From an uncultured virus (IMG/VR IMGVR_UViG_3300002835_009787) (Duplodnaviria > Heunggongvirae > Uroviricota > Caudoviricetes): a DNA stretch of 64,000 nucleotides. The stretch lies in the IMG/VR virus record IMGVR_UViG_3300002835_009787; one strand, given 5' to 3'. Below are positions 30,235 through 59,169 of the stretch, one piece after another. The notes under the pieces are model-generated. The model was not told where the DNA came from and did no database searches. It saw only the letters and a program-made list of their open reading frames with translations. How positions within the stretch are numbered: position 1 is the first letter of the stretch; the number at the start of each line of letters is the position of its first letter. A program made the position numbers and the translations under genes.

Positions 30235-31839
30235 TTAAATCTTCCAAGCTAACTCTGATTCAGAATTAGACTTTCTTCCTGATAATATTAGTTTAGCATC
30301 TTTTTGTTGTTGTGTCGAAGCCCAGTCCCACTGTTCAAGGGCGTATTGGTACATACCCTTGATCATGTCTCTGTTCTTGTTCCAAAGTATATTGCGAACG
30401 TTTGGAATATAAGATATAATATCATTAGTATTTATAGATCTAAGTTCAGATGAAACTACAAAGAACTTAACTTCTTTGATCAATGCAGTTATTTCTGCGC
30501 CAGTAAAGTATTCTGCTTTTTCAGCTAGGGCATCTAGATCAAATTGGTGATCTGTTTCAATTGTCTTCAAGCATATCTTAAAGATATCTTTTCTTTCCTC
30601 AAGAGATGGAAGACCAACAAAAACAATTTTATCGAAACGATCTGCGCGAAGCATCTCGGGACGAAGGTTCTCTATTTGATTAGCTGCACACATAAGAAAT
30701 GTATCTTCTGGAAGTTCTTGAAGACCAGTTAAGAATTCGCCGTGTACGCGATCAGTAGTGCCCGCATCTACAGAAGCAGAAGAAGCACCACCTGAAAGAT
30801 CTCGACCAAACTCGTCGATCCAAACACAAAGTGGAGTCATCATCTTAATCTGTTGAAAAACTGCTCGCATGTTCTGCTCTGACTGGCCAACAAAAGAATT
30901 CATAACTTGGCTAATTCCAGTACGAGCTAAGTCAAGACCTAGTTCATGAGCAGTTGCTTGGCAGATAGCTGACTTGCCAGTGCCTGGAACGCCCACCATA
31001 AGAACTCTTCTGATTGGTACAACGCCAAAAGATTTTGCTTGCTCTCTGTTATCCCAAAGAAGTTTAGTTCTTTGAATAATATCTTTAATATTATCTAAGC
31101 CACCAATGTTAGCAAAAGATATAGTTGGCTTAATGATTTCAAGAATGCCGGCTTGTTTAATCTTAGCCATCTTTTGATCATATATGTACTTTGGGTTAAC
31201 TTCGTTGTGATGCAAAATGGAACGCAAACAAAGATCTACAAACTGATCTTCAGCAAGACCTAGACCAGAACGAACAATATCTTTAACTGAATCTTGTTTT
31301 ATAAATCGGCCCGCAGAAGCATTGTCGATATGGTTTACAACAGTGAATAGTTCTTCAGCATTTGGGTAAGAAAATTCAACATTCTTAAACATGTGAGCGT
31401 ATTCTTCTGGTGCATCAGTAGAAGATAAGAATATAATCTGTATTGATCCAGCATTGGCGTCATCAGCCCAGAAGTTTTTTCTATACTTACTATTCAAAGA
31501 AGCAATAAATGACATGTATGGAGGCAATGTCATGTCTGGCTTACCAATAATAGAAAGAATAAAAGTAACAGGTTTTTCAGACTTTAAATTAATAAGATAA
31601 TCTAAAGAAACAGAAGGATCAAAAGTTGATTGTGCAACTCTTTCATTTGTTTCTGGATTAAGTGTTTCAATAAGAACAGTCTTCCATGAGCCATCAACAT
31701 ACTGAGAAAAAGCAGATTCAAAATCAATAGTATAAAAATCTCTAAAATTATAAGAGATTAAGCTTTCGGCGGCCCTGGAAAATTCAGTGGTCTTAAGCCA
31801 TAAAGCTGGATAGCCTAGTTTTATTTCATCAAATAACAT
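30235..31839 (-). CDS. AAA+ ATPase (Ycf46/SpoVK-like: degenerate N-terminal AAA plus active AAA)
   Basis: IGGLD.IK, Walker A GVPGTGKS, Walker B VWIDE, PEMLRADRFD second region of homology. Confidence 0.9.
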   Translation of the reverse strand: MLFDEIKLGYPALWLKTTEFSRAAESLISYNFRDFYTIDFESAFSQYVDGSWKTVLIETLNPETNERVAQSTFDPSVSLDYLINLKSEKPVTFILSIIGKPDMTLPPYMSFIASLNSKYRKNFWADDANAGSIQIIFLSSTDAPEEYAHMFKNVEFSYPNAEELFTVVNHIDNASAGRFIKQDSVKDIVRSGLGLAEDQFVDLCLRSILHHNEVNPKYIYDQKMAKIKQAGILEIIKPTISFANIGGLDNIKDIIQRTKLLWDNREQAKSFGVVPIRRVLMVGVPGTGKSAICQATAHELGLDLARTGISQVMNSFVGQSEQNMRAVFQQIKMMTPLCVWIDEFGRDLSGGASSASVDAGTTDRVHGEFLTGLQELPEDTFLMCAANQIENLRPEMLRADRFDKIVFVGLPSLEERKDIFKICLKTIETDHQFDLDALAEKAEYFTGAEITALIKEVKFFVVSSELRSINTNDIISYIPNVRNILWNKNRDMIKGMYQYALEQWDWASTQQQKDAKLILSGRKSNSESELAWKI

Positions 31840-31871
31840 TATGTCCCCTAATAGATAGACTCTAGCCTTTT

Positions 31872-31921
31872 AAAAAAAATGTGGGAAGACTCTTACGCGG
31901 AATGTATAGAGCCTTCCCACA
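31872..31921 (-). terminator. intrinsic terminator-like hairpin after the Ubl gene
   Basis: GTGGGAAGGCTCT...AGAGTCTTCCCAC stem followed by a T-run on the - strand. Confidence 0.6.
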
Positions 31922-31939
31922 AACCTGAGACTGAATGTA

Positions 31940-32191
31940 TCAGCCCTTTTCTCCAGCACGACGGTGGAATTCTACGTTGTCACCTGGTTGGATAACATAG
32001 TTCTCGTCGAGCTTCTCTTTGCCCTTGTAGGCAACTGCGTCTGTTGGGATGCCCCAAATTTTTGAGAACTGTTCACGAGTCTGCTGTACTGACTTGCCAG
32101 CTACGTTAGTAGGTTGATTGTAAACGCCAAATCTAAGATTTGCCATTCCTGTTGCTTGTGATGCTGATGCACCTGACATATTGTTTTCCAT
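31940..32191 (-). CDS. ubiquitin-like beta-grasp modifier (Prok_Ub/PRTRC-C-like)
   Basis: 83 aa; GKSV..R, L..NYVIQPGDNVEF.RRAGEKG with a free C-terminal Gly; next to E1. Confidence 0.85.
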   Translation of the reverse strand: MENNMSGASASQATGMANLRFGVYNQPTNVAGKSVQQTREQFSKIWGIPTDAVAYKGKEKLDENYVIQPGDNVEFHRRAGEKG

Positions 32192-32210
32192 GATTGCTCC
32201 TTGTTATTGT

Positions 32211-32969
32211 TTATGCTGTAATATATTCGGAAACATGAGATACCATTCGATTGTAAGGCTCAGCTTTGCCTACGCCTAAATCAAAATATATTTCAGTTTC
32301 TTCGGGGCTTTGGTCTAGTACAATTGTCTTTTGTACGCGGCCAAGGATTAGTGCAGCTACTGCCATATTGGTGGCTAGTAGTTGAGTACCACCTTCTATT
32401 TCTGATCTTTCCTGACATGATAGTTCACCAGGGTTTTTGTCTGGAGCATTCTCATATTCAGGATGAAATGTTGAAGGATGTTCGGTTATTGCAACGCCGT
32501 TTCTTTTTTGGTAATGATATATAGAACCAAACAAAGCGTCGTCATTGCCACCAGTAAATACATCTACGTTGTTTAACCTCGCAGCTGCATCAAAAATAAT
32601 CTTACGCGCAGCGAAGTTATCGACAACTGCAAAAACAACATCTCCTTCAGATATGAGATCCGACGCTTTAATCTTCGGAGAGTCTTCGTCTGCACTGACT
32701 CCTTTGAAGGTGTCACTGACAACCCACTTCGGAACCGGTATAATTGTTGTTTTCTGGAATTGAGGCGTAAGTTCGTGCGCTTTGACAACAGCTTTGTTGC
32801 CAATTTTAGCGAACTCTTGACGTTCTTTATTTTTTTCTTCATAGTTATCTCCATCTACTATAATTAAACCAGAACCAGGAAACTTCCATTCAAGAAGTCT
32901 TACTAGGCCAGCGGTAAGCCAAGTGCCTACGCCTCCTGCTCCAATAACTACAAATCTTTTAGTTGCCAT
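32211..32969 (-). CDS. E1/ThiF-family adenylyltransferase
   Basis: VIGAGGVG, VDGD.YEEKN..RQ, KA, VDNFAARK, candidate catalytic Cys in ELSCQE, QLLATN. Confidence 0.9.
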   Translation of the reverse strand: MATKRFVVIGAGGVGTWLTAGLVRLLEWKFPGSGLIIVDGDNYEEKNKERQEFAKIGNKAVVKAHELTPQFQKTTIIPVPKWVVSDTFKGVSADEDSPKIKASDLISEGDVVFAVVDNFAARKIIFDAAARLNNVDVFTGGNDDALFGSIYHYQKRNGVAITEHPSTFHPEYENAPDKNPGELSCQERSEIEGGTQLLATNMAVAALILGRVQKTIVLDQSPEETEIYFDLGVGKAEPYNRMVSHVSEYITA

Positions 32970-34698
32970 TTTTTGCTCCTGTTGATTCAAATGAACTATA
33001 TACAGAATGATAGTTTTCGCAAGGAATTATCGTGTTTCTGTGTTGATCAAGATTTAGTGTAAACCCCTGCTTAACATAAGTAGTTAAAGCAGAACGAAAT
33101 GCTGGACAGGTAGCATTATAATAATGAACGCATTCCAAACATGAAGTTCCTTCAGCGTACATTTCTGTATCCCTAATATGTTCTTCAAAATTTGTTAAAT
33201 CTTCAAATAATATAGCTGGATTGCACGAACAATCAGATACAAAATCCTCCATAGGAATATTGCAACAGACAGTTCTTGTTCCGTTTATATCGTAGATAGA
33301 ATCATATGGGTCTTCTTCAGGAAGATAAACATAATCGGAATCTTTTTCATAAACATAATCATATGTATGAATATCGGTAAGTTCTTCTTGAAGATTTAGC
33401 TTCATTAAAAAGACTTCATCTTTTTCAGATTGACCATAAAGATAAGGAATAGTTTTAAGATAATCTAAATTTCTTTGTTCACAATATTTAGCAAACTGAG
33501 CAGCAATCTGCATGATACCATGTGTAGATGATATAACTGGAACGTCGCATGAGCAACAATATCCAGCATTTACATCTGGTGTATCTAAATCAAAATCACA
33601 ACTTGGACAAATTGAAGTTCTAGAAAGTTGAAGATCTACTTCTACAATTACAATAGCTTGAGGCTCTAAGCCTTCTACCATTTGTTGCCAGCTAAGATTT
33701 CTGCTAGTAAGTGTTCCACCCACCATAGGTGTTGTCCCATTTTGTAATGAGGTCATTTTTTGTGCTTGTTGTTGATACTGTGCCTGCGCCGAAGCCAGCG
33801 GTGTTGTACCCCCCGCTATAGGGGGGAGCGCTTTTTTTACTTTACCTGACCATTCAACTACGTCTGGGTCTGGTTCTTTTTGAAAAGTATAATCCTCAAA
33901 AACATCTTCAGGCTTTAAGGTGTAAGCAGTTCCTGCCATTTGAAGCTCTAAGTGGTACTGAGTAGCACCATTGTTTTGAGACTTCTGCCAACCGTAAGTA
34001 ATGTGAAGACCATCAAAATCAGCCTGGTCAGCGTGGTCTGTGCCAGAAGCATAAGCCGACATTTCTGGGTGACTATGAACAGATCCGACAATCAAAACAT
34101 CTTCTGGCTTAATAAGAGCGATGCTGTCTGCATCATACTTACAATGTGCTGCGGTATTTGACTGTTCAGGAACTAAAACTCCCCAACCTTCTGGACCAGT
34201 CTTAGTCATATCATATGTCAACAAGACAATTGATTCAGTGCCATGTTGAGAATAAACAAGTCTAAAGAATTGATCCATTTTGTCAACAAGAACATGCGGC
34301 ATAGCGGGCATATTGTACTCGCATGTTTCTTCAGCTACAAAGAATGTTTCTGGAAGTTCATCGTCGGAAAGCTCTATAACTCTACCAACAAAATTATTTA
34401 TAACTTTAAACAAAGAAGAGTTATATGTTATAACTTGTGTTGGCTGAGCACTCGGATAGTTGTATGTTGTAGCGCCACTTGAATAACCAGTTGTGGTCGT
34501 GGTTTTAACACTGTTGTTTGGAATGGTTTTAACAGTTTTTTTATTAGCTAGAAGATAATAAATATTAAAACCAAAATCTTCTACTATGTCGCAAATATTA
34601 TCCCTGTCTGCGACGAAGCAAGGCAAACCTGATGGCATCCAAAAGTATTGGAGTTGATCAAGAGTTATCTTGCTAGTTTGTTCAACTTGCTGAGACAT
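32959..34698 (-). CDS. JAB/MPN+ metallo-isopeptidase with a Cys-rich C-terminal extension
   Basis: HGTE...GSVHSHPEMSAYASGTDHADQ (E...HxHx7Sx2D), DGLHITYG; several CxxC. Confidence 0.9.
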   Translation of the reverse strand: MSQQVEQTSKITLDQLQYFWMPSGLPCFVADRDNICDIVEDFGFNIYYLLANKKTVKTIPNNSVKTTTTTGYSSGATTYNYPSAQPTQVITYNSSLFKVINNFVGRVIELSDDELPETFFVAEETCEYNMPAMPHVLVDKMDQFFRLVYSQHGTESIVLLTYDMTKTGPEGWGVLVPEQSNTAAHCKYDADSIALIKPEDVLIVGSVHSHPEMSAYASGTDHADQADFDGLHITYGWQKSQNNGATQYHLELQMAGTAYTLKPEDVFEDYTFQKEPDPDVVEWSGKVKKALPPIAGGTTPLASAQAQYQQQAQKMTSLQNGTTPMVGGTLTSRNLSWQQMVEGLEPQAIVIVEVDLQLSRTSICPSCDFDLDTPDVNAGYCCSCDVPVISSTHGIMQIAAQFAKYCEQRNLDYLKTIPYLYGQSEKDEVFLMKLNLQEELTDIHTYDYVYEKDSDYVYLPEEDPYDSIYDINGTRTVCCNIPMEDFVSDCSCNPAILFEDLTNFEEHIRDTEMYAEGTSCLECVHYYNATCPAFRSALTTYVKQGFTLNLDQHRNTIIPCENYHSVYSSFESTGAKNGN

Positions 34699-34737
34699 AT
34701 GTTCTCCCTAATGTTATATTGTATTCGTTGTTTTTGA

Positions 34738-36381
34738 TTAGAACGGTTCTTCATCAGAAGATATAATTAAAGTACCATCTGTAAGTTCTGACAATAGTTG
34801 TAATAAATTTTTAGCTTCAGCTTGGTTTGATTCTGCTACGTCTTCAGAATTGGCTGATTGAAGGATTTCAACACACACCGCACAATGGTAGTATTGTGTG
34901 GAAGGATCATACTTTACTGTTGTTGGATCAAAATGTTGAGAAGTGTGACTTGGTACATTGACGCCACAATTAATACAATCAGCAACATTTTCTCCACCTA
35001 TACAAAAAGCACAAAGTGAAGAATGTTCTTCTTGTTGATTTTCCCAAATTAAGAATAATTGTTTATCTGGGAATGGAGAAATGTGAATACCTCCGCAATT
35101 AGAGCAGTTGCCCCAAGGAGTCTTTATGGCACTAGTGTCGTAATACTGATCGTGGTGTGTATCATAATAAAGGCTGTCGCCCATATGATCAGGGATATAA
35201 AACTGCATGGTGTTTTCTGCGTAAACCATCTCGTGACTGCTTATGCATTCAGAACAAATCTTCATGCATTTGCCTGTATTAACATTGTAATAAGAATGAT
35301 CTTTTGAACAATCTTCGATTGGTGTAGCTTCACCTGTCATTGTACAGGCTATGTAGTCTTCGCTGTCTTCATCAATTTCTTCTTCGTCTTCATCAAACAA
35401 ATTAGGTACAGCTACAGAATTTTGTTCTCTGATTTGTGAACTAGCAGAATATGGGTCTAACCCAGAAAATGTAGTTTTAGATGAATTATAAGATTTAACA
35501 AACCAATCAGTAACTTGTATTGGATTAATTTCAAGATCTGAACGAGTCAAAGCGTTTACTGGTTTTGGCAAATAAGTATCTCCATAGTATGAACTATAGT
35601 TGCCAATAATTGCGTCTACTAAAGTAAGGGGAATGCCGTTTTCTTTGTGTTGCCCTTGGCTGTCTCTGCTTTCAACATGAATTGGTATCCAATTAGATGA
35701 ATCTAGAGTCCATTCCCAACCTTCTTCAGTAGATTTTTTTTCCCACTTACTTGGGGACCAAGTATACAAAGGCATTTCTCTTTCTTGGTAAAAGCGTGGG
35801 CCGTCTGTTTCACTCATGTTGGCATCGTTATATACTTCAACGCCAGAACAACGCTCAAGAGCTCTGTTCAATCTTTCATTAAATGGAAGAGTAGACCAAT
35901 CTTCATTATGGTATAGGCAAATCCAACCAACACCGTTGCCTCGGTAACCTCTGCAATTAATGTTTGGTAAGTTTACATGGTAAAGCTGAACAGCAGAATG
36001 GATAGCCGGCTCTACAGTATAAAATGTTCTAGCACCTAAAAGGTTGTCGCTAAGAAAGTCTATAACAACAATCCTGTAAGGTTGAGCTAAATAATACTTA
36101 GTGTAATCAGAGTCTCTTTCATATGCACCCCAATTAACATAATACATACCAGGCTTATACTGGTATATAACTTGAGTGTGGTCTCCTGCGCGTCTGATAC
36201 CTAATAAGCCAGTTCCATCAACAGGAAGCAAGCCAGTATCAAAGTAAGCATAATTAGAAAAAGATGTAAAAAATGAAGTTATATCTTTATCTGTAACGTG
36301 GTCAAGATTAAATGAATTTACTTTAGACCGAAAGATAAGATTGCTGTCTTCTTTTACAAAACTGTAAGAAACTTTATCCAT
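34738..36381 (-). CDS. prokaryotic E2-like (Prok-E2_D-like) protein with C-terminal Zn-finger repeats
   Basis: YYLAQPYRIV...LYHVNLPNIN...GWICL; multiple CxxC; ends DEEPF. Confidence 0.7.
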   Translation of the reverse strand: MDKVSYSFVKEDSNLIFRSKVNSFNLDHVTDKDITSFFTSFSNYAYFDTGLLPVDGTGLLGIRRAGDHTQVIYQYKPGMYYVNWGAYERDSDYTKYYLAQPYRIVVIDFLSDNLLGARTFYTVEPAIHSAVQLYHVNLPNINCRGYRGNGVGWICLYHNEDWSTLPFNERLNRALERCSGVEVYNDANMSETDGPRFYQEREMPLYTWSPSKWEKKSTEEGWEWTLDSSNWIPIHVESRDSQGQHKENGIPLTLVDAIIGNYSSYYGDTYLPKPVNALTRSDLEINPIQVTDWFVKSYNSSKTTFSGLDPYSASSQIREQNSVAVPNLFDEDEEEIDEDSEDYIACTMTGEATPIEDCSKDHSYYNVNTGKCMKICSECISSHEMVYAENTMQFYIPDHMGDSLYYDTHHDQYYDTSAIKTPWGNCSNCGGIHISPFPDKQLFLIWENQQEEHSSLCAFCIGGENVADCINCGVNVPSHTSQHFDPTTVKYDPSTQYYHCAVCVEILQSANSEDVAESNQAEAKNLLQLLSELTDGTLIISSDEEPF

Positions 36382-38416: not shown

Positions 38417-38749
38417 TTAATATTTTTGTTCATATCTAGATGAAATTGGTATTGAGTAGTAGTTGTTTTCTATTATTTTAATAACTGCCTTCATGTTAAC
38501 ATTTTTTGAGTTATCATTAAATAATTTAGATAAAAGCATGAGTCGTTGGTATTCGGTTGTTCCGCCCCATATGCCAACAGAATCAGTAATCATTGCCTCG
38601 TAAAGACAGTCGGCTTTAACTAAACATGTGTCGCATAGAGAAAATGGCTTAGCCACTGTAGCTTCAGTATATCTGTTAGGGAAAAATACAATTGTATCTT
38701 CTTCATTACAAGAAGATTCCTGCATCCAGGGCTTTCGTTCTATTAACAT
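38417..38749 (-). CDS. whiB: WhiB-family Fe-S transcription factor
   Basis: W....SC...FFP...CDTCLVKADC...GIWGGTTE.QR. Confidence 0.85.
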   Translation of the reverse strand: MLIERKPWMQESSCNEEDTIVFFPNRYTEATVAKPFSLCDTCLVKADCLYEAMITDSVGIWGGTTEYQRLMLLSKLFNDNSKNVNMKAVIKIIENNYYSIPISSRYEQKY

Positions 38750-38765
38750 TTTGATGCCTGACTAG

Positions 38766-38841
38766 TAGGGCGGGTGGGGATTGAACCCACGTGGACCAAC
38801 TAACCTTTCAACACTTTATAAGAGTGAGGGTATACCGCCCT
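38766..38841 (-). tRNA. atypical D-armless tRNA-like gene, anticodon TAT (Ile)
   Basis: AGGGCGG/CCGCCCT acceptor plus A73, T-arm GTGGG-TTCAATC-CCCAC, CACT-CTTATAA-AGTG; no D-arm; 21-nt variable region. Confidence 0.7.
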
Positions 38842-38897
38842 GTATATTAGCGGCTACCTATTCGGTTAGTTGACATTTAATTATCTTTCTATAAAAG

Positions 38898-38984
38898 GTG
38901 ATAGTAGTGATAGAGTTCCACAACGGGAAGTTGTAGTACGCATTATATTCTATCATTACCAACATTGAAATGCGCTACTATCAT
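38898..38984 (-). ncRNA. candidate pseudoknotted RNA, copy A
   Basis: closing stem, CGCAU/AUGCG pseudoknot, UGAUAGA/UCUAUCA stem, internal hairpin; homologous to copy B. Confidence 0.6.
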
Positions 38985-38992
38985 GAAAATAA

Positions 38993-39083
38993 AAGACAGC
39001 AGTGATGCCAAGAGAATATGGGTCTCACGTGCTTATTGCATCATTGGGTTCGCCCACGATTAAGTAGGACACGCTACTGTCTT
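38993..39083 (-). ncRNA. candidate pseudoknotted RNA, copy B
   Basis: AAGACAGUAG/CUGCUGUCUU stem, CGUGU/GCACG pseudoknot, UGAUGC/GCAUCA stem; begins 2 nt after tRNA-Thr. Confidence 0.6.
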
Positions 39084-39085
39084 AG

Positions 39086-39157
39086 AGCCCGCTCTCGGGA
39101 TTGAACCGAGGACCACTGCATTACAAGTGCAGAGCTCTACCACTGAGCTAAACGGGC
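39086..39157 (-). tRNA. tRNA-Thr(TGT)
   Basis: canonical cloverleaf, CTGCA-CTTGTAA-TGCAG. Confidence 0.95.
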
Positions 39158-41722: not shown

Positions 41723-42220
41723 TTAACTTTCTAAAGTAGTTTCAGTTGATAAAAGAGTTTTAATAACACCAGTTAATTGGCAAGATCGATTTAACATTTT
41801 TCCTTCTGGAGTAGACTGATCAACGCCAGGTAATGGAGAAGTGTCTCCATAAGAGTTGATATTTATATCTAAAGAATTAACTCCACGATCCATTAAAATG
41901 TACTTTAGTTGCTTAGCCCTATCATCGCTTAACTGTTGACGTTCTTTAGAATCGCCATCTGCTGAAGCTCGACATTCAATTAACAAAGAAACATAAATAG
42001 AATTAGAATACTGTCCAATGTAAGTATTTATGCATTGGTTGTCTTCTACTAAAAATGTATCTTGATTTGAATTAAACAATATATTACAAGGTGGATCTAC
42101 AACTGGAATAGTAGTAGAAGTGGTAACAGCAGGTTCTGATTCAGAATTTGGTATTAAAATATAAGCAAAAATAGCAAGTATTAAAATAACTAAAGTAGTG
42201 TTAATAATAATTTTTTTCAC
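41723..42220 (-). CDS. OmpA/MotB-like peptidoglycan-binding protein with an N-terminal anchor
   Basis: LSDDRA..L...L...GV....I...SYG.T.P...NR. Confidence 0.75.
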   Translation of the reverse strand: MKKIIINTTLVILILAIFAYILIPNSESEPAVTTSTTIPVVDPPCNILFNSNQDTFLVEDNQCINTYIGQYSNSIYVSLLIECRASADGDSKERQQLSDDRAKQLKYILMDRGVNSLDININSYGDTSPLPGVDQSTPEGKMLNRSCQLTGVIKTLLSTETTLES

Positions 42221-45796: not shown

Positions 45797-47236
45797 TTAT
45801 TTCACCAATATGTATTTGGAGAATTGACCGACAGTACCATCTGTTGATACTGCGGCCATTCTACATGAGCGAATATTTAATGAAGATATTGATATAAAGT
45901 AAGAATTAGTTGTTCTGTTTCTATTGCTAATAACTTTATCAACAATTTTATTGTCTGCATATCTGCACCTTAAAATAAAATTAGACACAGGTATATTTGT
46001 ATATCTGTATGTAAAGTCTAATCGAATATAAGATAGTCTAGTTGCAAACTTTTTCAAAGTTATAATGTAAGGAATATTTAAATAGTCTTCTGATTCATCA
46101 TCTTCATCAAGTACGGTGGTAGTAGGTGATGGAGTTGTTGTAGTTGGTGAGGGAATAGTTGTGGTGGGTGGTGGGGGTGTAGATCCAGCTGTTGAAAACA
46201 GGGATCTAAAATCTATTCTTTTTGTAACAATTTTGGTGTAATCATCTACTGCGTTGATTCCAGTAGATTGAAAGTCAGATACTACTTTATCTACTGATTG
46301 TACGCCAAACTTAGAACGGTATACTGCAAATGCGCCAGCAACCATAGGTGCTGACATAGATGTTCCTGAAGATGCACCATATGCACCCATAAGTTTGGAA
46401 GACACTATGTTGTAGCCGGGAGCTGATAGATCAGTTAGTTCGTTGACATTGCTAAAGCTAGTAACTCTGTCACTACCGTCTCCAGCAGTGTACGTTGCAG
46501 CAACACTGACAGTGTCTGTAATGCATGCTGGGGAACTCATTCCACGCTGGCCTTCGTTGCCGGCCGAAACTACAGTAGCAATATTTTTAGACTTCAATGT
46601 AGAAATAATTGAAGTTAAATCTGGTATATAAGAGTTGCATGAAGATTTAAATGTTCCTGGTGTACCAAGAGACATGTTAATAGCTGCAATGTTATATTGG
46701 CCAGATATAGAATCAATCCATTGTAGTGCTCGGATAAGATCGTCATCTGACGCAGAACCGTCAAAAGCAAATACATTGACAGCAATGATCTTTGCACTAG
46801 GGGCTACACCTCGAATGGATGAATTAAACCCAGCTGCGATGCCTGCGGTATGGGTACCGTGCCAGTGGACTGGGGCTGCTGCACCAGGGCCTACCATAGA
46901 GTTTTGACCGTTAGGGCATTTGGTAGTGAAGCAAGCTTCAAGTGCTACTCTGCCACCAAAGAACGAGTGGACAGTTTCAATGCCAGTATCAAGAATAACT
47001 ATATAGGAATCCTGACCTTTGTAGTTATTATTGTAAGCTATATCTGCACCCATTCTTGGGATTGCAGATGATAAGTTGGGAGAGTAATAGTTGATAAGTT
47101 TTCGATAAAACTTAACTGTTGAAACAGCTGGGGCGACATCGCCTGCGTTAGCTGTATTAGTTTTTGAGTTAACAAGAACTGTTAACATTAATGCTGTTGT
47201 TAACAACAGTTTTAGATAGTGGCTCTTATTCCGCAT
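45797..47236 (-). CDS. secreted subtilisin-like (S8) serine protease
   Basis: ILDTG, HGTHTAG, SAGN, GTSMSAP; signal peptide; Thr/Pro linker. Confidence 0.9.
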   Translation of the reverse strand: MRNKSHYLKLLLTTALMLTVLVNSKTNTANAGDVAPAVSTVKFYRKLINYYSPNLSSAIPRMGADIAYNNNYKGQDSYIVILDTGIETVHSFFGGRVALEACFTTKCPNGQNSMVGPGAAAPVHWHGTHTAGIAAGFNSSIRGVAPSAKIIAVNVFAFDGSASDDDLIRALQWIDSISGQYNIAAINMSLGTPGTFKSSCNSYIPDLTSIISTLKSKNIATVVSAGNEGQRGMSSPACITDTVSVAATYTAGDGSDRVTSFSNVNELTDLSAPGYNIVSSKLMGAYGASSGTSMSAPMVAGAFAVYRSKFGVQSVDKVVSDFQSTGINAVDDYTKIVTKRIDFRSLFSTAGSTPPPPTTTIPSPTTTTPSPTTTVLDEDDESEDYLNIPYIITLKKFATRLSYIRLDFTYRYTNIPVSNFILRCRYADNKIVDKVISNRNRTTNSYFISISSLNIRSCRMAAVSTDGTVGQFSKYILVK

Positions 47237-47256
47237 AGAGTTCCTTTGTTCTTTTG

Positions 47257-47342
47257 TGCCCAAGACGGGGATCGAACCCGTACGATCATTTCTAATCGAG
47301 GGGGTTTAAGCCCCTTGCGTCTACCGGTTCCGCCACCTGGGC
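47257..47342 (-). tRNA. tRNA-Leu(TAA)
   Basis: class II cloverleaf with a long variable arm, AGGGG-CTTAAAC-CCCCT. Confidence 0.9.
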
Positions 47343-58999: not shown

Positions 59000-59169
59000 G
59001 TTAATCCTTTTTGAGTTAATAAAATTTTTTTTATTATACTTAAATAGTGGGTAGCAAATGGTTGGTTCGCAGCATTCATCGGGAATGTGCACACTTACTA
59101 CCCACTAAAAGTTTATTAGTAGGGTTGACCCGCGATCAGTCAGGCCAACCCCACCAAATTTAGATAACC

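What the first reader, a model, noticed from the sequence alone, without database searches (positions are those of the whole stretch)
38898..39083. Tandem pair of homologous pseudoknotted RNAs with covariation between two tRNA genes
Seen: two ~90-nt elements on the - strand share topology and conserved linkers while their stems differ. A: AUGAUAGUAG-CGCAU...AAUGAUAGA-AUAUA-AUGCGU-[hairpin]-UCUAUCA-CUACUAUCAC. B: AAGACAGUAG-CGUGU...AAUGAUGC-AAUAA-GCACGU-[hairpin]-GCAUCA-CUGCUGUCUU. All three helices (closing, pseudoknot, inner) show compensatory changes. Several apparent mismatches become G-U pairs only on the tRNA-sense strand. Copy B starts 2 nt after tRNA-Thr. I do not recognise the family; B partly resembles pistol ribozyme topology but lacks its conserved GCG. 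Inference: a tRNA-processing ribozyme, a nuclease-resistant RNA, or an antitoxin/decoy RNA.
Basis: seen in the sequence. Interest (0 to 1): 0.78.

Follow-up and report, generated by a model that had tools for sequence, protein, structure and literature searches.

The report
Undescribed modular phage pseudoknot RNAs
A group of large aquatic phages keeps one to three small, tightly knotted RNAs of a fold that matched no catalogued RNA family beside its tRNA genes; they look like stable RNAs cut out of the tRNA transcript, possibly decoys against host defences, but their job is untested.

Summary
Two units (B 39083-38993, A 38983-38899, minus strand) share one fold: a 9-10 bp closing helix, two crossing helices and a hairpin. 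I collected 29 distinct units in four subtypes from 17 loci. 576 of 580 positions in the three helices pair, with 45 G-U and no A-C juxtapositions, so this is RNA on the tRNA strand. No Rfam family matches. Units come singly or in arrays of two or three, are gained and lost between related phages, and also occur in a distant 52% GC phage. The tRNA-processing ribozyme reading is not supported: only 13 of 29 units touch a tRNA, tRNA-Thr occurs without B, and HDV, pistol and hammerhead cores are absent. Best explanation (0.40, inferred): stable trans-acting RNAs excised from the tRNA transcript, with subtype-specific display loops, acting as decoys. Rivals: RNA-end/terminator element, new ribozyme, aptamer. 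The second 'tRNA' is a non-canonical Ile(UAU) tRNA-like RNA behind a CGA-AUA leader ORF. The scan held no sequence look-alike; one unchecked note describes a module in a similar setting in marine phages.

The parts
39086..39157 (-). tRNA-Thr(UGU), no encoded CCA; unit B starts 2 nt after it
   Evidence: Rfam RF00005 68.4 bits, ARAGORN
38993..39083 (-). Unit B (91 nt): P1 10 bp, PK 5 bp, extra hairpin in loop 1, P2 6 bp, P3 4 bp with a conserved 9-nt loop
   Evidence: 15 distinct B/B' homologues
39014..39022 (-). P3 loop of B, containing C(C/A)CAUAU; kept in all 15 B/B' and both D units, absent from A and C
   Evidence: 17 of 29 units
38984..38992 (-). 9-nt U-rich spacer between B and A; likely processing site (inference)
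   Evidence: sequence; U-rich spacers of 5-9 nt separate all tandem units
38899..38983 (-). Unit A (85 nt): P1 9 bp, PK 5 bp, P2 7 bp, variable P3 hairpin
   Evidence: 10 distinct homologues
38956..38964 (-). Conserved single-stranded end of loop 1 of A (invariant except one position in 10 of 10 A units)
   Evidence: alignment A5
38847..38876 (-). 9-codon leader ORF ending CGA-AUA, three codons, stop, 5 nt before the tRNA-like RNA
   Evidence: same ending in frame behind an AUG in 15 of 15 distinct contexts of this clade, stop codon TAA, TAG or TGA; 0 of 14 contexts outside the clade
38763..38841 (-). Non-canonical tRNA-like RNA: acceptor and T arms, Ile anticodon loop (UAU), no normal D arm
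   Evidence: not called as tRNA; tRNA-like ends only; 26 viral loci, 84 phage records; acceptor stems vary with pairing kept
38417..38749 (-). whiB-family gene; points to an actinobacterial host (inference)
   Evidence: Pfam PF02467, E 1.3e-12

Best explanation
A and B are members of an undescribed family of small, stable, trans-acting phage RNAs. Shown: one conserved scaffold in the order P1-5', PK-5', loop 1 ending in AA, P2-5', 2-6 nt linker, PK-3', U, hairpin P3, one base, P2-3', P1-3'; four subtypes at 45-71% identity; arrays of one to three units in tRNA regions; gain, loss and decay of single units. Inferred: they are co-transcribed with the tRNA genes, host endonucleases cut the short U-rich spacers and the tRNA 3' trailer, and the 9-11 bp closing helix hides both ends from exonucleases, leaving discrete 77-125 nt RNAs. 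Further inferred: P1 stacks on P2 and PK on P3 side by side, and this compact core displays subtype-specific single strands (the CAU-containing P3 loop in B and D, the loop-1 segment in A) that bind and titrate host RNA-binding proteins, most plausibly tRNA-directed defence nucleases or other translation-control factors.
For: 260 of 261 P1, 144 of 145 PK and 172 of 174 P2 positions pair across 29 units; 45 G-U, 0 A-C. P1 has two-sided changes at 9 of 10 pairs, 0 of 500 shuffles reach the score. Arrays with different interiors: B+A (window and 8 other loci), B'+C+D (L258), B'+D (L500, L502), single B (L244, L284), single A (L028), single C (L496), a decayed A (L245). Related phages lack the units at the same place (L058, L061, L172). 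Each subtype keeps its own unpaired segment while stems change, which a plain terminator or end-cap does not need. The genes that follow differ between loci and their ribosome-binding sites lie outside the fold, so no shared cis target is visible. Positional precedent: T4 rnaD and rnaC lie in tandem 1 nt after tRNA-Arg and are annotated as small stable RNAs, of unknown function (PMC9697503, passages). Weak: relatives of A appear on short contigs of depth 2.4-4.4 in 3 of 4 RNA libraries laid.
Against: No binding partner was identified and no experiment exists. The CAU loop is in only 17 of 29 units, has 8-9 nt and no U at the position before CAU, so it is a poor anticodon-loop copy; A and C lack it. 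No RNA contig covered B, and the RNA contigs were low in depth, chosen by words shared with this stretch and laid without a DNA or silent control. Every unit is followed by 2-7 U in 8 nt, which fits a terminator-like role as well. Units were found with patterns taken from A and B, so the invariance of AA, of the U after PK and of much of P2 is partly built in; only L255-B, L258-C and the D units were found by adjacency. The family is narrow: 0 true units in 120 loci from cellular genomes and none in 50,697 cultured-phage records.
Confidence: 0.4

Rival explanations
1. Cis-acting RNA-end element: the pre-folded core brings the P1 strands together so that P1 plus the U-rich tail stops or pauses RNA polymerase, or blocks 5' and 3' exonucleases after the tRNA is cut out, tuning the downstream leader ORF, tRNA-like RNA and whiB.
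For: U-rich tail after P1 in B (4-7 U in 8 nt) and in C and D (6 in 8). B buries the 5' end left by tRNA 3' processing within 2-3 nt. A lies 22-27 nt before an AUG in 10 of 10 cases. RNA contigs from three studies begin near the B/A boundary, at about 38975-39003 (weak, ends do not coincide). An unchecked scan note reads a marine-phage pseudoknot module this way (e1-5976978).
Against: A has only 2-5 U. Three different units in a row directly before a gene with a good ribosome-binding site (L258) would silence it. Conserved subtype-specific loops and a crossing helix are more than an end-cap needs. The terminator scan finds nothing at either unit, although it only looks for short loops.
Confidence: 0.25
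2. A new class of self-cleaving ribozyme that cuts within the core (for example next to the purine that ends P1-5' and can pair with the U after PK), releasing or trimming RNAs in the tRNA operon.
For: Compact crossing-helix core with zero- and one-base junctions; independent placement right after tRNA-Thr and tRNA-Met, as theta ribozymes are placed (PMC10879173, passages); ribozymes are reported to cluster near each other and near phage genes (PMC10085705, passages). The PK, P2, P3 order resembles HDV P1, P2, P4.
Against: Across subtypes the only invariant unpaired bases are AA and U, both partly fixed by my search, against 10 highly conserved nucleotides in pistol (PMC6154101, passages). The HDV P3/L3 domain is replaced by 2-6 nt and the junction equivalent to J4/2 is one base, G in B and C. 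A core cut would fall 11-12 nt from the tRNA end. 16 of 29 units have no tRNA directly upstream. No RtcB in 0 of 5 related records to use cyclic-phosphate ends (a host enzyme is not excluded).
Confidence: 0.13
3. Riboswitch-like aptamers, acting in cis or as sponges for a nucleotide signal or metabolite, each subtype with its own ligand.
For: Size and pseudoknotted multi-helix core are typical of aptamers (own knowledge); tandem arrangement; the two crossing helices have nearly equal energies when formed alone (A: -19.0 and -18.7 kcal/mol), which would allow a switch.
Against: No expression platform, no consistent downstream gene, no riboswitch family at E up to 10, few invariant unpaired bases.
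Confidence: 0.12

Closest known systems
T4 rnaD and rnaC (species 2 and 1 RNAs)
   Same: Two tandem small RNAs starting 1-2 nt after a phage tRNA gene, 6-9 nt apart; function unknown.
   Different: rnaC ends in a T-loop arm and both end in tRNA-like tails; different predicted folds. The units here have no T-loop at a T-arm position and no CCA end.
Theta ribozymes (minimal HDV-like, tRNA-associated)
   Same: Small pseudoknotted phage RNA directly 3' of a tRNA; similar order of three helices.
   Different: No P3/L3, no catalytic C junction, extra closing helix, putative cut site far from the tRNA end, most units not next to a tRNA.
UG27 reverse-transcriptase ncRNA arrays (bioRxiv 10.64898/2026.09.22.753630)
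   Same: Phage arrays of structure-conserved, sequence-diverse units with a pseudoknot, with gain and loss of single units (section 9 read).
   Different: UG27 units are about 135-167 nt long hairpins beside an RT and two accessory genes; here 77-125 nt, one to three units, and no RVT_1 match in 10 record searches.
GOLLD and ROOL RNAs
   Same: Structured ncRNAs near tRNAs in phages, function open (PMC5737381, passages).
   Different: Several times larger; no Rfam match.
Pistol ribozyme
   Same: Short 5-bp helix starting C-G, A-rich linker, one pseudoknot.
   Different: Different helix connectivity; no G40-C41-G42 segment after the pseudoknot strand and no G-U junction between P3 and P2.
Type III toxin-antitoxin RNAs and phage pseudo-ToxI decoys (recalled)
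   Same: Tandem pseudoknotted RNAs; a phage RNA used as a decoy is the working model.
   Different: Those are near-identical short direct repeats without a closing helix; the units here are 45-71% identical between subtypes.

Membership tests
Any Rfam 15 family | Covariance-model match at the gathering score | tested here: not met
   Window: 7 tRNAs only; at E up to 10 the only overlap with A/B is an opposite-strand frameshift element at E 8; L258: 6 chance-level hits.
Theta / HDV-like ribozyme | Cleavage site within 5 nt of a tRNA 3' end | tested here: not met
   The G1-equivalent (39074) is 11-12 nt from the tRNA end; 16 of 29 units have no adjacent tRNA.
Theta / HDV-like ribozyme | Catalytic C at the first position of J4/2 | tested here: not met
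   The equivalent junction is one base: G in all 17 B/B'/C units, C, U or A in A and D.
Theta / HDV-like ribozyme | P3/L3 domain between P2-5' and P1-3' (recalled) | tested here: not met
   Only 2-6 nt lie there.
Theta / HDV-like ribozyme | Self-cleavage | not testable with these tools
   needs an in vitro assay
Pistol ribozyme | 6-bp pseudoknot between the P1 loop and the P2-P3 junction; G40/G42; G-U cleavage junction | tested here: not met
   Connectivity differs and the motif after the pseudoknot strand is absent in 29 of 29 units (the exact motif searched was recalled).
Hammerhead, including non-circular permutations | CUGAnGA block | tested here: not met
   0 of 29 units; GAAA in 4 of 29 at unrelated places.
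UG27 RT ncRNA array | Adjacent RT with two accessory genes | tested here: not met
   PF00078 in 0 of 5 and 0 of 5 records, three of them at least 97% complete; neighbours in the window are not RTs. A very divergent RT could be missed.
Bacterial Y RNA (YrlA) with Ro60 | Ro60/TROVE gene and tRNA-like T arm | tested here: not met
   PF05731 in 0 of 5 records; no Rfam match.
T4 rnaC/rnaD-type stable RNA | Same fold or sequence | tested here: not met
   Different folds and tRNA-like ends; no blastn match of A/B to T4-like records over the units.
T4 rnaC/rnaD-type stable RNA | Accumulates as a discrete stable RNA in infection | tested here: inconclusive
   Low-depth RNA-library contigs of A relatives only.
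Intrinsic terminator | GC-rich short-loop hairpin followed by a U run | tested here: inconclusive
   No hit in the scan; U-rich tails of 2-7 U in 8 nt follow a helix with a 60-105 nt structured loop.

The most novel reading that the evidence does not exclude
The units are a new kind of phage tRNA-mimic decoy. Their helix order equals a tRNA cloverleaf (acceptor, D, anticodon, T) in which the 5' strand of the T stem has moved into the D loop, and B and D show CAU in the anticodon-equivalent loop. They would soak up host nucleases aimed at CAU-anticodon tRNAs (Met, Ile2), as part of a cassette in which a CGA-AUA leader ORF senses failing AUA decoding and releases a non-canonical UAU tRNA-like RNA as replacement.
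Probability: 0.12. Interest if true: 0.88.

Novelty: categorically new. Interest (0 to 1): 0.62.

Why it matters
The fold is well supported, small enough to synthesise and probe at once, and matched nothing in Rfam or in the searches made; 'categorically new' refers to the fold, and its role may prove ordinary. If the RNAs are decoys, they add an RNA-only, modular counter-defence to the conflict over tRNAs between phages and bacteria, and give a handle on the old question of what the non-tRNA RNAs in phage tRNA clusters (T4 rnaC/rnaD, GOLLD, ROOL) do. If they self-cleave, they are a new ribozyme class. The neighbouring tRNA-like RNA is unannotated in most of 84 records that include cultured Streptomyces phages, so it can be tested genetically.

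Tried and rejected
Rfam at gathering and E-value thresholds: nothing for the units. blastn against cultured phages: only the tRNA and tRNA-like parts match; L258 array and L496 unit give no real match. Pattern scans of viral contigs were mostly chance: 3 of 56 loci real, 4 of 33, 3 of 3 already known, 6 of 7 (two already known). Cellular genomes: 0 of 120 loci, scan also cut at its limit. Model R1 on records of related viruses: 6 of 45, 4 of 5, 0 of 50; many are fragments. No further copies in the window or in the related records scanned by descriptor. No RT, RtcB, Ro60 or CCA-adding enzyme. The ORF before the L258 array has no relatives or family, so that contig's lineage is unknown apart from sharing B' and D with G045. 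Pairing of B's P3 loop with A's loop 1 or with B's own G-run: no consistent covariation by inspection. Complements of the display segments are not enriched in carrier genomes. Window 59044-59108, the third model hit, is an unrelated long hairpin. RNA runs held only 0.05-0.09 of the words; 4 of 11 were laid; B had no cover, which proves nothing. Not in print as far as searched. Supplements of PMC10690425: four files searched without a hit, two zip archives and three large files unread; the supplement of PMC5737381 could not be read; bioRxiv supplements were closed. Any of these may list the motif.

Full report
1. Setting. The window is part of a large AT-rich phage genome. It carries seven tRNA genes on the minus strand and whiB genes, which points to an actinobacterial host (inference). 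No assembly of its own is held. Record G002 (204.9 kb) matches 45 of 50 window ORFs at 97.8% mean identity; G003, G006, G004 and G045 match 45, 42, 38 and 29 of 50 at 67, 63, 52 and 46%.

2. Observation. A descriptor of the topology gave 6 hits in the window: B, A on both strands and 3 AU-rich background hits. A stricter descriptor gave 13 hits in 40 shuffled windows. Folding z-scores are about -3.1 for both on the minus strand, but B scores -3.36 on the plus strand too. Rfam has no family for them. A model built from 14 B-like units finds A in the window at E 0.011 and nothing else below 0.6, which supports homology of A and B; their global identity is 55%.

3. Homologues. Pattern scans and neighbour searches gave 29 distinct units from 17 loci: 12 B, 3 B', 2 C, 2 D, 10 A. 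Left out as duplicates: L035/L057/L175/L213 (window), L059/L140/L170 (L244), L040/L173/L177 (L028), L279 (L255), L501 and the D of L502 (L500); left out as decayed: the A of L245. L258 holds B', C and D in a row with 5-6 nt spacers. D shares no recognisable stem sequence with A or B in PK and P2, yet the descriptor recovers it directly behind C and again behind B' in the complete genome G045. L496 lies in a 52% GC record that shares 1 of 50 window ORFs; its C unit starts 1 nt after tRNA-Met(CAU).

4. Structure. Over 29 units, 260 of 261 P1, 144 of 145 PK and 172 of 174 P2 positions pair, with 45 G-U and 0 A-C juxtapositions. PK positions 2-5 and all six P2 positions show two-sided changes, nearly all between subtypes. 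Within B-like units P1 has two-sided changes at 9 of 10 pairs and P3 at 1 of 4, while PK and P2 have none. Within A there is one two-sided change, in PK, not beyond shuffles. These counts are not tree-aware, and the units were found with patterns from A and B, so AA before P2, U after PK and much of P2 were selected for. P1 joins PK and P2 with no unpaired base, so the two crossing helices cannot stack end to end as in a classical H-type pseudoknot; a side-by-side arrangement, P1 on P2 and PK on P3, is the simplest model (inference). The two crossing helices have similar energies when formed alone, so alternation or pairing between molecules is not excluded.

5. Context. All 12 B units start 2 nt after tRNA-Thr(UGU), of three different alleles. 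One C starts after tRNA-Met. The other 16 units follow another unit or the stop codon of an ORF. G005 has A without B, and its tRNA-Thr lies 17 kb away with no unit behind it. L058, L061 and L172 lack units at this place. Downstream genes vary and their ribosome-binding sites lie outside the fold. No RT, RtcB, Ro60 or CCA-adding enzyme was found in the records tested.

6. Expression. Eleven RNA-labelled runs held 0.05-0.09 of the words. Of four laid, three gave short contigs of A relatives at depth 2.4-4.4; one spans 38996-38768, from the end of B to the end of the tRNA-like RNA; none covers B. There was no DNA control and contigs cannot show ends, so this is a weak hint.

7. The neighbour. 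The element at 38841-38763 is not a standard tRNA. It has acceptor and T arms that covary, a nearly invariant interior with an Ile anticodon loop (UAU; GAU in Streptomyces phages) and no normal D arm. It matches 84 cultured-phage records, mostly unannotated, one labelled tRNA-Leu. G006 and G045 have a canonical tRNA-Ile(UAU) at the corresponding place. In 15 of 15 distinct contexts of this clade an ORF of 9-74 codons ends CGA-AUA, three free codons, stop, 5 nt before it, with all three stop codons used; 0 of 14 contexts outside the clade show this. A ribosome stalled at AUA would leave the tRNA-like 5' end free and one at the stop would cover it, so this could be an AUA sensor (inference; a DNA motif is the alternative). 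AUA is 290 of 859 Ile codons in the window's long ORFs.

8. Mechanism. Best reading (0.40): stable trans-acting RNAs cut from the tRNA transcript, sharing a scaffold and displaying subtype-specific loops as decoys for host RNA-binding proteins. The scaffold, modularity and loops are shown; excision, stability and binding are inferred. Rivals: cis RNA-end or terminator element (0.25), new self-cleaving ribozyme (0.13), aptamer (0.12). That tRNAs are targets of bacterial defence and that phages counter with their own tRNAs is stated in the abstract opening of PMC12409363 (listing only).

9. Known families. Theta ribozymes cut within 5 nt of the tRNA end and need a C at the start of J4/2 (PMC10879173, passages); neither holds. 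Pistol features (PMC6154101, passages) and the hammerhead CUGAnGA block (PMC10085705, passages) are absent. UG27 arrays (bioRxiv 10.64898/2026.09.22.753630, passages and section 9) are longer and need an RT. T4 rnaD/rnaC share the position but not the fold (PMC9697503, passages). GOLLD and ROOL share the setting only (PMC5737381, passages). Passages of bioRxiv 10.64898/2026.10.21.760802 showed nothing on this motif. Nine literature searches and four supplementary files of PMC10690425 gave no description; several supplements could not be read, and subscription journals are not covered. The scan's own notes hold no sequence look-alike; one note describes a module in a similar setting.

10. Verdict. 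A real RNA family with a fold not found in the libraries searched, narrow in known range, function untested. Interest 0.62.

Noticed in passing
window 38763-38876 (-): Non-canonical Ile tRNA-like RNA with a leader ORF ending CGA-AUA-NNN-NNN-NNN-stop 5 nt upstream in 15 of 15 clade contexts; homologues unannotated in most of 84 cultured-phage records (82 Streptomyces, one Rhodococcus, one Bacteroides phage). Deserves its own study.
   Followed up: partly
L258:58-398 (-): Array of three units (B', C, D) with near-identical U-rich spacers, after an ORF of no known family and before a gene with a good ribosome-binding site.
   Followed up: yes
L500:1038-1272 (-), G045: B'+D pair 102 nt upstream of a canonical tRNA-Ile(UAU) in a complete 210.8 kb genome; D has a long conserved loop 1 that folds as an irregular hairpin.
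   Followed up: partly
L245:561-625 (+): Decayed A unit: closing-helix ends remain, interior partly deleted, behind an intact B.
   Followed up: partly
window 30235-36381 (-): Cluster of AAA ATPase, 83-aa possible ubiquitin-like protein, ThiF (E1-like), weak JAB-domain protein and a 547-aa unknown: looks like a phage-borne ubiquitin-like conjugation system (Pfam for AAA, ThiF, JAB; the rest is inference).
   Followed up: no
window 59043-59109 (-): Unrelated long hairpin (about 16 bp, with an inner hairpin) followed by a TATAAT-like hexamer, upstream of a probable whiB-like ORF.
   Followed up: no
window 45797-47263 (-) and 41723-42220 (-): Subtilase-family protease with a Pro/Thr linker, and an OmpA-domain protein, among the tRNA genes.
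   Followed up: no
L495:1409-1672 (-), phage T4: rnaD and rnaC sit in tandem 1 nt after tRNA-Arg, the same layout as tRNA-Thr, B, A, with different folds.
   Followed up: yes
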